A DNA stretch of 64,000 bases from a virus, in the IMG/VR virus record IMGVR_UViG_3300022555_001761; one strand, 5' to 3'. Positions 49,644-52,218 of this stretch are shown piece after piece. How positions within the stretch are numbered: position 1 is the first letter of the stretch; every line of letters starts with the position of its first letter. Both the position numbers and the translations under genes were made by a program. Under the pieces are notes generated by a model. The model searched no databases, had not been told where the DNA came from, and was given only the letters and a program-made list of their open reading frames with translations.

Positions 49644-49895
49644 ATGGATTATAGTAAGATTATAGAAATAATAGAAAAAGATTGTAATCCTCCTTGGACA
49701 CATGGTGCATGGGGAATTGCTGGAGTATATGGCACAGTGTTAAAAACAGAAAAAAAGATAAATGATCACAATTATTATTATGAACTAGTAGCTAGTCAAC
49801 ACGGTGGAACTAGGGTAAAATATATTACTTGCACAGATATAAAATTTATAAGAAAAGAGAAATTAGAAAAAATAAACAATATTACAAATGAATGA
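49644..49895 (+). CDS. family-B small protein (tail FIRKEKLEKINNITNE)
   Basis: track ORF 83 aa. Confidence 0.5.
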   Translation: MDYSKIIEIIEKDCNPPWTHGAWGIAGVYGTVLKTEKKINDHNYYYELVASQHGGTRVKYITCTDIKFIRKEKLEKINNITNE

Positions 49896-52218
49896 TTTTT
49901 TTATACAAGCCCACACAAGTTTTATTGGGCAGACAGGATATAATGCTCATGCAAGAGATTTCTTCACAGCATTAAGTTATAAAAATCCATTAAGAATTAG
50001 AAATTTTACTGTAGGAAAAACTTGGGATGGATTAGGTCCAATGAACTCAAATGGTAGATATAATGATCCTCATGCAAATGAGTCATACATAACTGATTAC
50101 CAGAGAAAACTAATAAATATTCAGACATTATATTGTGGACTAGGTTCTCAAAACAGATATGGAAGTGGACTTTGTGACAGTGATGTTAATAGCGAAACAA
50201 AATATTTAAATGTACCAAAAGTAGATTTGATTTTAAGTGAAACCAATCATCATTATTATCATTGTCTCGAAAAATATACTGGTTTAAAAATTGCATATAA
50301 TGTTTGGGAATCAACAAAATATGAAGATGGATTTTTTGAAATACTTAAAAAGTTTGATCAATTCTGGTGTCCATCAAAATGGCAGAAACAATGTATTGTA
50401 AATCAAGGTTATCCAGAAAATAAAGTTTTTGTTGTACCTGAAGCTGTTGATGGATCTATTTTCAATCCAGACTTCTTCAATTACAATTTAGATATGTATA
50501 AAGATAATAGATTCAAATTTATATTATTTGGAAGATGGGAATATAGAAAAGCAACAACAGAAATTATTGATACTTTTATAAAAACATTTAGAAAAGAAGA
50601 GCCAGTTGATTTAATATTGGCAGTTGACAATTCAGATTATTCTAATGATGGAATGAAAACAACTGAAGAAAGATTAAATCATTATAATTTTAATGATAAT
50701 AGATTGAAAGTCTTGCATTTTGTTGATAGAAAAGATTATGTAAATTATCTTAAAAATGGTCATGTATTTTTATCTTGTGCAAGATCAGAAGGATGGAACT
50801 TACCATTGTGTGTTCCTTCTGGAAAATTAATATTTGGTAATAATAATTTCATTCCAATAGAATCAATAAAAGAAAATGATATAGTTATTAGTCACATTGG
50901 AAGAGAACAGAAAGTATTAAAAAAATTTAAAAATAAATATAATGGCGACATAATAAATATAAATTTGTATAACGATTTTGAAATGTTAAAATTAACACCT
51001 GAGCATCCAGTTTATGGTATTAAAAGAGAATCTTTTATAACAAAAAAAGGTAAATTTAATAATATTCAAAATATTAAGCCAGAATGGATAAAATCAAAAA
51101 ATATTAAAAAAGGTGATATAATACTGAGAACAACATTACCTCAAAAATATTTTAATAATGAAATAATTGATTTATTAACATTAGATAATACATTATTATT
51201 TGATGATGATAAAGTTTGGTATAAAACTGGATTTAATTATAAAAGTGAGCAACTTAAATATAATAGATTTGTTAATTTACATGATTTATCTTTTTTATTC
51301 GGATGGTATATTTCTGAAGGCACAGATGGTATATCAAAATTAATATTTTCATTAAATTATCAGAAAGAAATGCCAATTGCTGAAAAAATTATATTTGAAA
51401 TAAATAAAATATTTGGTGCTATTGGTAATTATGATATTAAAGGAAATAGGTTAATTGTAACTTTTAATTCCACTTTACTATGTAAATTTTTTACATTTTT
51501 TTGTAATAAAATGTCTTACAATAAAATAATACCAGAAAAAATTCTTTTAGGACCATTAAATATTTTAGATGAATTAATTAAAAATATGGTTTTAGGTGAT
51601 GGTTGTTATTCCAATGAAAGATTCAATTATACAACAGTATCATACTTACTAACTAGGCAATTGATGTTCGCAAATCAGCGATTAAACAAAAAAACTTCTT
51701 TACAACTCAATAAAAGAAAAAAAATTGGTAAACGTCCATGTTATACTCTATCATGGAGTATAAATAATGAAAATAATAGGCATAGTAATAAATCTTGGTG
51801 GCATCCAGAAGGATTAGCAATATTAGTTAAGAATTCTATATCAGAAAATTATAATGATTATGTTTACAATTTAGAAGTAGAAAATGATAATTCTTACTTA
51901 TTATCAAATGCAACTGTACACAATTGCGAAGCAATGGCTTGTGGTACGCCATCAATTTATTCTAATTGTAGTGGTCAGTTAGAATTCGCAGAAGGAAAAG
52001 GTCATCCAGTTAAAATAGTAAATGAAAAACCAATTCCAAATGGAGTAGGAAATTATTACGAACCTGATTTTGGTGATTTATCAAAAGTAATGAGAGATGT
52101 TTACACAAATTATTGGAAATATAAGAAAAAGGCATTAGAAGATTCTGAATTACTAATAAATGAATTCTCTTGGGATAATGCAGCTAATAAAGCACTTGCT
52201 ATATTAAAAAATATTTAA
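49888..52218 (+). CDS. GT4-family glycosyltransferase interrupted by an in-frame intein (404 aa after splicing)
   Basis: exteins ...FLSCARSEGWNLPL | intein | CEAMACGTPSIYS... together rebuild the GT4 EX7E motif (EGWNLPLCE) and the EAMAxGxP nucleotide-sugar binding signature. Confidence 0.8.
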   Translation: MNDFFIQAHTSFIGQTGYNAHARDFFTALSYKNPLRIRNFTVGKTWDGLGPMNSNGRYNDPHANESYITDYQRKLINIQTLYCGLGSQNRYGSGLCDSDVNSETKYLNVPKVDLILSETNHHYYHCLEKYTGLKIAYNVWESTKYEDGFFEILKKFDQFWCPSKWQKQCIVNQGYPENKVFVVPEAVDGSIFNPDFFNYNLDMYKDNRFKFILFGRWEYRKATTEIIDTFIKTFRKEEPVDLILAVDNSDYSNDGMKTTEERLNHYNFNDNRLKVLHFVDRKDYVNYLKNGHVFLSCARSEGWNLPLCVPSGKLIFGNNNFIPIESIKENDIVISHIGREQKVLKKFKNKYNGDIININLYNDFEMLKLTPEHPVYGIKRESFITKKGKFNNIQNIKPEWIKSKNIKKGDIILRTTLPQKYFNNEIIDLLTLDNTLLFDDDKVWYKTGFNYKSEQLKYNRFVNLHDLSFLFGWYISEGTDGISKLIFSLNYQKEMPIAEKIIFEINKIFGAIGNYDIKGNRLIVTFNSTLLCKFFTFFCNKMSYNKIIPEKILLGPLNILDELIKNMVLGDGCYSNERFNYTTVSYLLTRQLMFANQRLNKKTSLQLNKRKKIGKRPCYTLSWSINNENNRHSNKSWWHPEGLAILVKNSISENYNDYVYNLEVENDNSYLLSNATVHNCEAMACGTPSIYSNCSGQLEFAEGKGHPVKIVNEKPIPNGVGNYYEPDFGDLSKVMRDVYTNYWKYKKKALEDSELLINEFSWDNAANKALAILKNI
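50809..51924 (+). mobile_element. intein (372 aa) with LAGLIDADG homing endonuclease
   Basis: begins CVPSGKLIFGNNNFIPIESI (block A, Cys1); ends VYNLEVENDNSYLLSNATVHN followed by extein Cys+1 (blocks F/G); internal LSFLFGWYISEGTDG and ELIKNMVLGDGCYS LAGLIDADG motifs. Confidence 0.8.

What the first reader, a model, noticed from the sequence alone, without database searches (positions are those of the whole stretch)
49888..52218. LAGLIDADG intein inserted precisely in the EX7E catalytic motif of a GT4 glycosyltransferase
Translation shows a 372-aa insert beginning with Cys (CVPSGKLIFG..., block A) and ending VYNLEVENDNSYLLSNATVHN, followed by an extein Cys, with two LAGLIDADG motifs in between. 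Removing it joins ...SEGWNLPL to CEAMACGTPSI, which recreates the GT-B EX7E and EAMAxGxP signature. Inteins sit almost always in replication and repair proteins. One in a sugar-transferase active site, in a glycosylation cluster, is unusual and would be a new insertion site.
Basis: seen in the sequence. Interest (0 to 1): 0.75.

Follow-up and report, generated by a model that had tools for sequence, protein, structure and literature searches.

The report
Homing intein splitting a phage glycosyltransferase
A large phage's sugar-transferase gene is interrupted, inside its nucleotide-sugar-binding EX7E motif, by a canonical self-splicing intein carrying a homing endonuclease; this is an unusual host protein for an intein, but public metagenomes hold dozens of similar cases.

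Summary
ORF 49888-52218 (+) encodes 776 aa. Residues 308-679 (nt 50809-51924, 372 aa) form a clean insertion between SEGWNLPL and CEAMACGTPS. More than 100 intein-free homologues of about 404 aa (up to 87% identity) align without a gap across the junction.

The insert has all class-1 intein residues: Cys1, TxxH, block-F Asp, His-Asn and a +1 Cys. It also has two LAGLIDADG motifs with intact acidic residues. Its AlphaFold2 model (pLDDT 93) matches solved endonuclease-bearing inteins (TliVMA, PI-PkoII, PI-SceI). dN/dS against a sister allele is 0.19.

The host gene is a GT-B/GT4-like glycosyltransferase of a large bacteriophage, not a cellular genome. A sister allele (L010) has a near-isogenic intein-free partner. 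Their flanks are 98.7-99.8% identical, and the mismatches cluster within 129 bp of the junction, which is the footprint of homing.

The site is not unique. At least 75 of the 142 closest intein relatives that carry a complete intein sit in GT-B glycosyltransferases, mostly in or beside EX7E, in phage-like contigs and DPANN-type archaeal GT4s. I found no published description.

Verdict: a real, probably active intein and a new member of a known kind, at an apparently undescribed but recurrent niche. Splicing and cleavage are untested.

The parts
49888..52218 (+). Precursor gene: a GT-B/GT4-like glycosyltransferase interrupted by an intein (776 aa, about 90.6 kDa; end coordinate includes the stop codon)
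   Evidence: ORF list. Pfam hits to Intein_splicing and Glycos_transf_1. The identical protein was found on 6 independent contigs.
49888..50808 (+). N-extein (aa 1-307). It holds the GT-B N-domain and most of the C-domain, and ends ...SCARSEGWNLPL with E301, the first Glu of EX7E (nt 50788-50790).
   Evidence: Alignments A1 and A3. 86% identical to the intein-free P0001. dN/dS is 0.13 against L003.
50809..51924 (+). Intein: 372 aa, about 43.6 kDa, class 1, with a nested LAGLIDADG homing endonuclease. GC is 0.221, against 0.28 and 0.31 in the two exteins.
   Evidence: Boundaries. Residues invariant across 24 relatives: C1, T63, H66, G263-D264-G265, D360, H371, N372. AlphaFold2 pLDDT 93.2. Foldseek match to TliVMA, PI-PkoII and PI-SceI inteins, E down to 1e-20. 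dN/dS 0.185. GC content.
50809..50811 (+). Cys1 of the intein (block A), the nucleophile for the N-S acyl shift
   Evidence: Invariant in alignment A2.
50995..51006 (+). Block B TxxH motif (T63-P-E-H66)
   Evidence: T63 and H66 are invariant in A2. Coordinates.
51292..51321 (+). First LAGLIDADG motif (LFGWYISEGT), with catalytic Glu170
   Evidence: G165 and G171 are invariant and E170 is at least 90% conserved. It aligns to block C of PI-PkoII.
51577..51603 (+). Second LAGLIDADG motif (IKNMVLGDG), with catalytic Asp264
   Evidence: G263, D264 and G265 are invariant. It aligns to block E of PI-PkoII.
51862..51924 (+). C-terminal splicing blocks F and G (VYNLEVENDNSY...NATVHN), with Asp360, His371 and Asn372
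   Evidence: N354, V357, D360, Y363, H371 and N372 are invariant. This segment is 93.6% identical to the L007 allele, with dN/dS 0.058.
51925..52218 (+). C-extein (aa 680-776 plus the stop codon). It begins with the +1 Cys (nt 51925-51927, position X7 of EX7E), then E681 (the second Glu of EX7E, nt 51928-51930) and AMACGTPS.
   Evidence: In 120 intein-free homologues, X7 is Ile in 103 and Cys in 9.

Best explanation
**What it is.** The gene encodes a 776-aa precursor in which a canonical class-1 intein, with a nested two-motif LAGLIDADG homing endonuclease, interrupts a phage GT-B (GT4-like) glycosyltransferase. The break lies inside the helix that carries the EX7E nucleotide-sugar-binding motif.

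**Splicing (inferred from established intein chemistry).**
1. After translation the HINT domain folds.
2. Cys1 attacks the Leu307 carbonyl (N-S acyl shift).
3. The thioester is passed to the +1 Cys680.
4. Asn372 cyclises and releases the 43.6-kDa intein.
5. An S-N shift leaves a normal Leu-Cys peptide bond.

This produces a 404-aa, 47-kDa enzyme with EX7E restored. The unspliced precursor should be inactive, because the motif is split.

**Homing (inferred).** The freed intein probably acts as a site-specific DNA endonuclease. When an intein-free relative co-infects the same cell, the endonuclease would cut the intact ...GGWTGGAAYTTRCCAYTD|NNNGAAGCWATGGCWTGTGG... site. Recombinational repair would then copy the intein into that allele, together with about 100 bp of flank and the Cys codon.

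**Why it persists (inferred).** The target is an invariant active-site motif of a gene conserved across this phage family. An imprecise deletion would therefore destroy the enzyme.

**Shown here.** The anatomy, the fold, residue conservation, purifying selection, the precise insertion, and a presence/absence polymorphism with a co-conversion-like tract in a sister allele.

**Not shown.** Actual splicing, endonuclease activity, and the donor and acceptor of the transferase.
For: - **Clean insertion.** A 372-aa insertion relative to more than 100 intein-free homologues at up to 87% identity and 100% coverage.
- **Restored extein.** The spliced product scores 46 bits on Glycos_transf_1 against 26 bits unspliced.
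- **Splicing and endonuclease residues.** All are present and invariant or nearly invariant in 24 relatives.
- **Sequence match.** PI-PkoII (PDB 2cw7) matches over both LAGLIDADG blocks and block F.
- **Fold.** AlphaFold2 gives pLDDT 93.2 and pTM 0.91. Foldseek's best hits are endonuclease-bearing inteins at E 1e-20 to 1e-12, and the endonuclease core matches I-DmoI.
- **Selection.** dN/dS is 0.185 over the intein, 0.19 over the endonuclease part and 0.058 over the C-terminal splicing blocks. The exteins give 0.13-0.25.
- **Real allele.** The identical protein was found on 6 contigs; the 4 places listed come from 4 samples.
- **Sporadic distribution.** The nearest relatives of the window's extein are intein-free (86-87%), whereas the intein-bearing L007 allele is only 67.5% identical in extein but 78.8% in intein.
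- **Near-isogenic pair.** L010 (intein present) and L090/L091/L092 (intein absent) have flanks 98.7-99.8% identical and differ by exactly the 1134-bp intein. Fifteen of the 19 upstream mismatches lie within 129 bp of the junction (binomial P about 3e-13).
- **Host protein fold.** The intein-free homologue P0001 models as GT-B (pLDDT 90.4). Its best structural matches are GT4 enzymes (GlgM, sucrose-phosphate synthase, MshA, PimA, BshA), and residues 305-312 form the EX7E helix.
- **Phage context.** T4 gp30.3, a glucosaminidase endolysin, RNA ligase and several free-standing homing endonucleases.
Against: - No experiment was done, so splicing and DNA cleavage are inferred only.
- Curated models score below their cut-offs. 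Pfam Intein_splicing reaches 32.5 bits on the excised intein (28.9 on the whole ORF) against a cut-off of 35.8. LAGLIDADG_3 gives 14 bits against 22.5. NCBIfam intein_Nterm and intein_Cterm are also below cut-off. The family assignment therefore rests on residue anatomy, fold and relatives.
- For the window's own allele, the closest intein-free relative is only about 86% identical. The direct homing footprint therefore comes from a sister allele (L010), whose intein is 61% identical to the window's.
- The intein-versus-extein identity comparison is near saturation at synonymous sites (dS 0.7-1.1), so it is weak evidence for recent transfer.
- One related allele (L009) has an in-frame TGA inside the intein. 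Some copies may therefore be decaying.
Confidence: 0.88

Rival explanations
1. The intein splices, but its endonuclease is inactive. It would be a fixed, vertically inherited passenger that persists only because imprecise loss would kill the enzyme.
For: Many endonuclease-bearing inteins are known to have lost cleavage activity (established knowledge; see also PMC8966425, listed). The window's own nearest intein-free relative is 14% diverged, so nothing shows recent movement of this particular copy.
Against: Both catalytic acidic residues (E170, D264) and the surrounding Gly residues are conserved. The endonuclease segment has dN/dS 0.19, no higher than the splicing domain. The L010 versus L090 presence/absence pair with a junction-proximal mismatch tract indicates ongoing mobility in the same intein lineage.
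Confidence: 0.25
2. The intein serves as a conditional switch. Splicing, and so glycosyltransferase activity, would be gated by redox state or another infection-stage cue, for example through a Cys1/Cys+1 disulfide. The element would then be partly domesticated rather than purely selfish.
For: Both splice nucleophiles are Cys, and the insertion disables a catalytic motif until splicing occurs. Conditional splicing of this type has been reported for other inteins (for example the mycobacterial DnaB intein, PMC6195587, listed). Related inteins recur at several neighbouring positions of the same motif in many GT-B proteins.
Against: Nothing here tests regulation. Most homologues work without any intein. 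The sporadic distribution and the homing footprint fit a selfish element. Clustering in conserved motifs is also what selfish persistence predicts.
Confidence: 0.1
3. The intein is splicing-dead, so the glycosyltransferase gene is a pseudogene in this phage.
For: Curated intein models score below their cut-offs. One related allele carries an in-frame stop inside the intein.
Against: Every residue needed for splicing is present and conserved. The frame is open for 776 codons in 22-30% GC DNA; chance probability for the insert alone is about 3e-18. Both the exteins and the intein are under purifying selection. The identical sequence recurs in several samples.
Confidence: 0.05
4. The insert is an assembly chimera, or a normal conserved domain of this glycosyltransferase family.
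For: None found.
Against: Six independent contigs encode the identical protein. Three further alleles carry the same insert at the same site. More than 100 homologues lack it entirely, with a gap-free junction.
Confidence: 0.01

Closest known systems
Archaeal endonuclease-bearing class-1 inteins: TliVMA and PhoVMA (PDB 7qsu, 7qss, 7qst), PI-PkoII (2cw7), PI-PfuI (1dq3) and yeast PI-SceI (1vde)
   Same: The architecture is the same: a HINT splicing domain split by a two-motif LAGLIDADG endonuclease, with Cys1, TxxH, His-Asn and a +1 Cys. These are the best structural matches (E 1e-20 to 1e-13, TM about 0.55-0.72). PI-PkoII is the only PDB hit by sequence.
   Different: Sequence identity is only 11-17%. 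Those inteins sit in V-ATPase, DNA polymerase or ribonucleotide reductase. This one sits in a glycosyltransferase. It is also compact (372 aa) and has no large extra DNA-recognition region.
Fungal chitin synthase (CHS) inteins (Green, Novikova and Belfort 2018, PMC5784728)
   Same: An intein inside a glycosyltransferase, that is, outside the nucleic-acid and ATPase host proteins that dominate intein hosts.
   Different: By my own knowledge, chitin synthase is a GT2, GT-A-fold, membrane-bound processive enzyme of eukaryotic nuclear genomes. The host here is a soluble GT-B/GT4-like enzyme of a phage, the site is the EX7E motif, and the inteins are unrelated in lineage as far as tested.
Phage inteins surveyed so far, in mycobacteriophages and actinobacteriophages (Kelley 2016, PMC5050341; bioRxiv 10.1101/2025.01.02.630785)
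   Same: A phage-borne, mobile intein with a sporadic distribution, inserted in the active centre of a conserved protein.
   Different: Kelley et al. report that all mycobacteriophage intein hosts bind nucleic acid. The word 'glycosyl' appears in neither survey. In 50,697 GenBank phage records, the relatives of this intein (at most 30% identity) lie under genes annotated as DNA methyltransferases, ribonucleotide reductase, thymidylate synthase, DNA polymerase or a tRNA synthetase, or as hypothetical or unannotated; none lies under a gene annotated as a glycosyltransferase.
Unannotated metagenomic GT-B inteins: P0122-P0129, P0130-P0161 and others, plus the DPANN-type GT4 alleles P0139 and P0281-P0286
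   Same: The same intein clade (30-78% identity) and the same host fold, with insertion in or beside the same motif. P0121-P0129, P0136, P0147, P0150, P0161, P0262 and L010 use exactly the window's position, after X6.
   Different: Other members use positions after X2, X4 or X5, just before the first Glu, or after EAMA. Some hosts are ordinary GT4 enzymes 65-91% identical to proteins named as from Woesearchaeota, Pacearchaeota or Nanoarchaeota rather than phages. None carries a name or a description.

Membership tests
Class-1 intein (HINT domain protein-splicing element) | N-terminal Cys or Ser nucleophile (block A) | tested here: met
   Cys308 (intein residue 1), invariant in 24 relatives.
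Class-1 intein (HINT domain protein-splicing element) | Block B TxxH motif | tested here: met
   T63-P-E-H66; T63 and H66 are invariant.
Class-1 intein (HINT domain protein-splicing element) | C-terminal His-Asn followed by a +1 Cys, Ser or Thr, plus the block F Asp | tested here: met
   H371, N372 and D360 are invariant. The +1 residue is Cys680.
Class-1 intein (HINT domain protein-splicing element) | HINT fold | tested here: met
   AlphaFold2 model with pLDDT 93.2. Foldseek's top 16 hits are all solved inteins.
Class-1 intein (HINT domain protein-splicing element) | Precise in-frame insertion relative to intein-free homologues, restoring a conserved host motif when removed | tested here: met
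   At the DNA level, the sister pair L010 and L090 differ by exactly the 1134-bp intein.
Class-1 intein (HINT domain protein-splicing element) | Score at or above the curated cut-off of the family models (Pfam PF14890; NCBIfam TIGR01445 and TIGR01443) | tested here: not met
   PF14890 scores 32.5 bits on the excised intein against a cut-off of 35.8. TIGR01445 scores 16.5 against 24.5, and TIGR01443 scores 14.7 against 15.6. All are significant or borderline by E-value but sub-threshold. The intein is divergent and the nested endonuclease splits the match.
Class-1 intein (HINT domain protein-splicing element) | Demonstrated protein splicing | not testable with these tools
   Requires expression with SDS-PAGE and mass spectrometry.
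LAGLIDADG homing endonuclease (monomeric, two-motif) | Two LAGLIDADG motifs, each ending in a catalytic acidic residue | tested here: met
   LFGWYISEG (E170) and IKNMVLGDG (D264). G165, G171 and G263-D264-G265 are invariant, and E170 is at least 90% conserved.
LAGLIDADG homing endonuclease (monomeric, two-motif) | Pseudo-symmetric alpha-beta-beta-alpha-beta-beta-alpha fold | tested here: met
   Model helices 157-170 and 250-264 are each followed by beta-hairpins. Foldseek matches I-DmoI over about 175 residues at E about 1e-7.
LAGLIDADG homing endonuclease (monomeric, two-motif) | Site-specific cleavage of the intein-free allele (homing) | not testable with these tools
   Indirect evidence only: the presence/absence pair with a co-conversion-like tract, the sporadic distribution, and dN/dS 0.19 over the endonuclease part.
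GT-B retaining glycosyltransferase, CAZy GT4-like (Pfam Glycos_transf_1) | Pfam Glycos_transf_1 or Glyco_trans_1_4 above the gathering score | tested here: met
   The spliced product scores 46.2 and 46.1 bits against cut-offs of 26.4 and 27.
GT-B retaining glycosyltransferase, CAZy GT4-like (Pfam Glycos_transf_1) | E-X7-E motif followed by AMAxGxP | tested here: met
   E301-GWNLPLC-E309-AMACGTPS in the spliced product. Both Glu residues are invariant in 30 homologues. The motif aligns to EGFGLPALEAMA and EPFGLVAIEAMACGTP of solved GT4 enzymes.
GT-B retaining glycosyltransferase, CAZy GT4-like (Pfam Glycos_transf_1) | Two-Rossmann-domain GT-B fold | tested here: met
   Tested on P0001, the 86%-identical intein-free homologue: pLDDT 90.4. 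The Foldseek best hits are GlgM, sucrose-phosphate synthase, MshA, PimA, PimB', BshA and PglA.
GT-B retaining glycosyltransferase, CAZy GT4-like (Pfam Glycos_transf_1) | Formal CAZy family assignment, and the identity of donor and acceptor | tested here: inconclusive
   The nearest solved structures are GT4 enzymes, but identities are 11-17% and glycogen synthases also match. The Pfam N-domain model Glyco_transf_4 is sub-threshold (18.2 bits against 28.5). No CAZy or dbCAN tool was available. Substrates are unknown.

The most novel reading that the evidence does not exclude
The EX7E nucleotide-sugar-binding helix of GT-B glycosyltransferases may be a major, so far undescribed intein niche. On this reading, a whole clade of LAGLIDADG inteins specialises on it, using at least five neighbouring insertion positions, sometimes with a second or third intein in the same enzyme. 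The clade would circulate among large phages and DPANN-type archaea. That would extend the rule that inteins target nucleic-acid or ATP-binding motifs to nucleotide-sugar sites. A bolder extension is that splicing gates the timing of glycosylation during infection.
Probability: 0.45. Interest if true: 0.65.

Novelty: new member of a known kind. Interest (0 to 1): 0.5.

Why it matters
- **A different kind of host protein.** Surveys place inteins overwhelmingly in replication, repair and other nucleic-acid or ATP-binding proteins. Kelley 2016 reports all mycobacteriophage hosts and 85% of bacterial hosts in that class. This intein sits in the donor-binding motif of a sugar transferase and belongs to a lineage that mostly lives in such motifs. 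That suggests the real requirement is an invariant, indispensable ligand-binding motif, not DNA metabolism as such.
- **An annotation problem.** Pipelines report these genes as 'hypothetical' or give weak glycosyltransferase calls. Glycosylation genes of phages and DPANN archaea are therefore under-called.
- **A natural test system for homing.** The near-isogenic pair with and without the intein (L010 and L090) offers a natural test of homing and co-conversion in uncultured phages.
- **Possible tools.** The family provides compact (about 370 aa) Cys/Cys inteins from very AT-rich genomes, and possibly new LAGLIDADG specificities.
- **Limits.** This is not a new mechanism.

Tried and rejected
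- **Giant-virus origin.** RCC1, ankyrin and major-vault-protein domains with 25% GC suggested a giant virus. I rejected this in favour of a large bacteriophage. The window has T4 gp30.3, a glucosaminidase endolysin, and runs of short genes whose coordinates overlap by 4 bp. Relatives carry CHAP and PTH2 domains on contigs of 400-531 kb.
- **Chimera or prophage edge at 52.6 kb.** The GC jump and a TonB-receptor-like gene raised this possibility. I rejected it because the same gene sits at the same place in related contigs, and GC returns to 0.24 afterwards.
- **Word-indexed search with the intein.** It found only one relative. The exhaustive HMMER search was needed and found 3806.
- **Single-sequence PDB search of the spliced extein.** It found nothing. 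A 30-sequence profile was needed.
- **Scans of GTDB species genomes.** A scan for close relatives of the extein found none. A scan with the intein profile found 168 relatives, of which the 80 kept were examined. Only one (L010) was in a glycosyltransferase. The rest have flanks I read, from motif recall only, as IMP dehydrogenase-, PHP-type-, NuoI-like- and C5-methyltransferase-like.
- **Rfam and tRNA scans of the window.** Both were empty.
- **Literature.** Eight full-text searches and targeted reading of six surveys or reviews gave no report of a GT4 or EX7E intein. InBase itself could not be consulted.
- **Final word-indexed search.** The search with an alignment of intein-bearing GT4s was dominated by one DPANN family, so it gave no global count.
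Full report
**1. The observation.** ORF 49888-52218 (+) is 776 aa. The insert is residues 308-679, nt 50809-51924, exactly 372 aa. It begins CVPSGKLIFG and ends ...VYNLEVENDNSYLLSNATVHN, and Cys680 follows. It contains LFGWYISEG and IKNMVLGDG. Excising it gives a 404-aa product reading ...SCARSEGWNLPL|CEAMACGTPSIYS. With the insert's own base composition (A 0.43, T 0.35), a 372-codon open frame has probability about 3e-18. The identical 776-aa protein was found on 6 contigs, and the 4 places listed come from 4 different samples (ERZ27245625, ERZ1426824, SRR5754711, ERZ1426734). 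It is therefore neither chance nor a misassembly.

**2. It is an insertion, not a domain.** A search with the spliced product returned 302 proteins. The best 60 or so are 392-421 aa long, up to 87% identical and cover about 100% of the query. In an alignment of the full ORF with 12 of them, the insert is one 372-column gap. There is no other indel between ...SEGWNLPL and (I/C/N)EAMACGTPS. Pfam Glycos_transf_1 rises from 26.4 bits on the unspliced protein (two fragments) to 46.2 bits on the spliced one (a single match, 206-328, across the junction). E301 and E309 are invariant in 30 homologues. The intein lies between X6 (Leu307) and X7 of E-X7-E. X7 is Ile in 103 of 120 intein-free homologues and Cys in 9, so Cys is tolerated there.

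**3. It is an intein with a homing endonuclease.** Curated models are sub-threshold but significant. Pfam Intein_splicing gives E 9e-8 and 32.5 bits against a cut-off of 35.8, and LAGLIDADG_3 and the NCBIfam intein N- and C-terminal models are weak. An exhaustive HMMER search found 3806 relatives at E<=1e-3, 47 of them at E<=1e-30.

In an alignment of 24 excised relatives, the invariant residues are the canonical ones:
- Cys1
- T63 and H66 (block B, TxxH)
- G165, E170 (at least 90%) and G171 (first LAGLIDADG motif)
- G263-D264-G265 (second LAGLIDADG motif)
- N354, V357, D360 and Y363 (block F)
- H371-N372 (block G)

The only PDB sequence hit is PI-PkoII, which aligns over both LAGLIDADG blocks and block F. 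The AlphaFold2 model built from that alignment has pLDDT 93.2 and pTM 0.91. Its best Foldseek matches in the PDB are endonuclease-bearing inteins: TliVMA 7qsu (E 1e-20), 7qss, PI-PkoII 2cw7, PI-SceI 1vde and PI-PfuI 1dq3. The central 175 residues match I-DmoI.

**4. Selection.** I compared the window with the sister allele in L007 (781 aa, intein at the same site). dN/dS is 0.185 over the intein, 0.23 over the N-splicing part, 0.19 over the endonuclease part and 0.058 over the C-splicing part. The exteins give 0.25 and 0.16. Both functions of the intein therefore appear to be maintained. The intein is more AT-rich (GC 0.221) than the exteins (0.28 and 0.31).

**5. Mobility.** Alleles carrying the intein are not each other's closest relatives.
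- The window's extein is 86-87% identical to the intein-free P0001 and P0002. It is only 67.5% identical to L007 and 69.4% to L010, both of which carry the intein.
- Intein identities to those two alleles are 78.8% and 61.0%.
- More distant hosts show intein identity above extein identity. P0126, for example, has extein 21% and intein 45%.

The clearest evidence comes from L010 (780 aa, intein at the same site, in a contig syntenic with the window). Its extein is 98.5% identical to the intein-free P0055. At the DNA level, L010 and L090/L092 are 98.7% identical over the 1503 bp up to the junction. L010 and L091 are 99.8% identical over the 1501 bp after it. They differ by exactly the 1134-bp intein. 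Fifteen of the 19 upstream mismatches lie within 129 bp of the junction (binomial P about 3e-13). The downstream flank has no mismatch for more than 600 bp. This is what gene conversion from a diverged donor during homing would leave. Precise loss by conversion from an intein-free allele is the mirror alternative. Either way the element moves as a unit. The intein-free partner already has Cys at X7.

**6. The host protein.** A profile of 30 homologues hits solved GT4 enzymes, with the motif aligned as seGWnlPliealaCGtP to EGFGLPALEAMA and EPFGLVAIEAMACGTP (5i45, 6kih, 7qsg, 2r60, 5d00, 2jjm, 3mbo). The AlphaFold2 model of P0001 (pLDDT 90.4) is a GT-B fold. Strand 293-296 is followed by a loop (CARSEGWN) and then helix 305-312 (LPLIEAMA). 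The intein therefore interrupts the first turn of the EX7E helix. The best structural matches are GlgM, sucrose-phosphate synthase, MshA, PimA, PimB', BshA, PglA, HepE and a chlorovirus glycosyltransferase. Donor and acceptor are unknown.

**7. The genome.** The window is about 25% GC and is packed with short genes, many with coordinates that overlap by 4 bp.
- It encodes T4 gp30.3, a glucosaminidase endolysin, RNA ligase, a 5'-nucleotidase and DNA methyltransferases.
- It has several free-standing GIY-YIG/NUMOD homing endonucleases and two TnpB genes.
- Relatives of the transferase sit on contigs of 400 and 531 kb, next to CHAP, PTH2, Dam and RNA-ligase genes.

I conclude it is a large (possibly huge) bacteriophage. 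The RCC1, ankyrin and vault-protein domains had first suggested a giant virus.

The GC rise at 52.6 kb is a phage-borne 1088-aa CarboxypepD_reg/outer-membrane-barrel gene that is conserved in synteny. It is not a chimera. Sugar-related neighbours are a GT2 (43526-44236), an epimerase-like gene (60651-61424), a DegT aminotransferase (61417-62574) and an epimerase/dehydratase (62931-63860). 'Glycosylation cluster' is therefore loosely right.

**8. How unusual is it?**
- **In the literature I could search, very.** No paper links inteins with GT4, EX7E or glycosyltransferase hosts. The surveys of Novikova 2016, Kelley 2016, Green 2018, the Anaeramoeba study and the 2025 actinophage preprint do not mention glycosyltransferases as hosts, with one exception. 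Fungal chitin synthase is that exception. It is a GT2 enzyme by my own knowledge (PMC5784728).
- **In 50,697 GenBank phage records, also unusual.** Relatives of this intein (at most 30% identity) lie under genes annotated as methyltransferases, ribonucleotide reductase, thymidylate synthase, DNA polymerase or a tRNA synthetase, or as hypothetical or unannotated. None lies under a gene annotated as a glycosyltransferase.
- **In raw metagenomic proteins, common.**
  - Of the 142 proteins with a complete intein among the 150 best relatives, 75 give spliced products that match the transferase-family HMM.
  - 61 junctions lie in or beside an EX7E-like string.
  - Eight of eight spliced products tested pass Pfam Glycos_transf_1.
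  - The positions used include after X6 (the window's site), X5, X4 and X2, just before the first Glu, and after EAMA. Some enzymes carry two or three inteins.
  - One ordinary GT4 family, whose intein-free members are named as Woesearchaeota, Pacearchaeota or Nanoarchaeota proteins, has about eight intein-bearing alleles.
  - None of the ten such clusters whose members were looked up is named as intein-containing.

**9. Verdict.** The element is a canonical class-1 LAGLIDADG intein, very probably splicing-competent and plausibly still homing. It sits in the EX7E helix of a phage GT-B glycosyltransferase. It is a new member of a known kind. The host class and site appear undescribed, but they are recurrent in nature. 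That raises the general interest of the niche and lowers the singularity of this locus. Splicing, cleavage and transferase specificity remain to be shown experimentally.

Noticed in passing
window 52660-55926 (+); also 43107-43538 (+): A phage-encoded 1088-aa protein with CarboxypepD_reg and OMP_b-brl_4 domains (TonB-dependent-receptor-like outer-membrane barrel). Its GC is 0.333, against 0.26 and 0.24 on either side. It is conserved at the same position in related contigs L003 and L004, so it is not a chimera. A small CarboxypepD_reg protein lies upstream. This suggests capture from a Bacteroidota-like host.
   Followed up: partly
window 30798-33209 (+): An 803-aa protein with Major Vault Protein shoulder, Vault_3 repeat and SPFH/Band-7 domains in a phage genome.
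   Followed up: no
window 329-1576 (-), 24768-25499 (-): An RCC1-repeat protein and an ankyrin-repeat protein. These are eukaryote-like repeat families in what otherwise looks like a bacteriophage.
   Followed up: no
window 7259-8197 (-), 33772-34542 (+), 12834-14042 (-), 41757-42944 (-); L003 7264-8478: A dense mobilome. There are two GIY-YIG/NUMOD1 homing endonucleases, two further NUMOD3 proteins whose positions were not located, and two IS605-type TnpB genes. The related contig L003 has a TnpB between the NUDIX gene and the 286-aa gene, where the window has none.
   Followed up: partly
L009 1990-2001 (allele P0121): An in-frame TGA inside the intein (..KIPYN*YVYNIVVENDNSY..), at the column where relatives have Gly or Asp. 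The reading frame continues through HN|CEAMACGTPS. It could be a nonsense mutation, a sequencing error or a recoded stop.
   Followed up: no
L010 (JAFGOA010000025.1, 'Promethearchaeota archaeon' MAG): The contig carries the same glycosyltransferase with intein, and the same flanking small genes as the window's phage family. It is probably a phage contig mis-binned into an Asgard MAG.
   Followed up: partly
P0146, P0152, P0165, P0178, P0193, P0198, P0217, P0223; P0138: A GT-like family of about 540 aa carries two inteins. One is at VCLDFKPDIV|C.IRD.WM in the N-terminal half, and one lies immediately before the EX7E Glu (YIQYS.|CEGFGIP). After one intein was removed, P0138 (1488 aa) still contains two more LAGLIDADG-type inserts.
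   Followed up: partly
L010 1372-1500 versus L090 2790-2918: Fifteen of the 19 mismatches between otherwise 98.7%-identical phage contigs cluster in the 129 bp upstream of the intein junction. There are none in the first 600 bp downstream. This looks like a one-sided co-conversion tract.
   Followed up: yes
window, ORFs not individually located (set scanned): The same window also holds GGDEF, cREC_REC, NADAR, cobalamin adenosyltransferase, SIS and Val_tRNA-synt_C domains, an unusual auxiliary gene set for a phage. CYTH is at 40404-40880.
   Followed up: no
L091 1205-2008 (homologue of window 48673-49533): The conserved gene immediately upstream of the glycosyltransferase has a weak precomputed Pfam Gp23 hit (T4 major capsid protein family) in one relative. 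The window copy has no Pfam hit, and weak tblastn hits to 634-642 kb uncultured huge phages.
   Followed up: no
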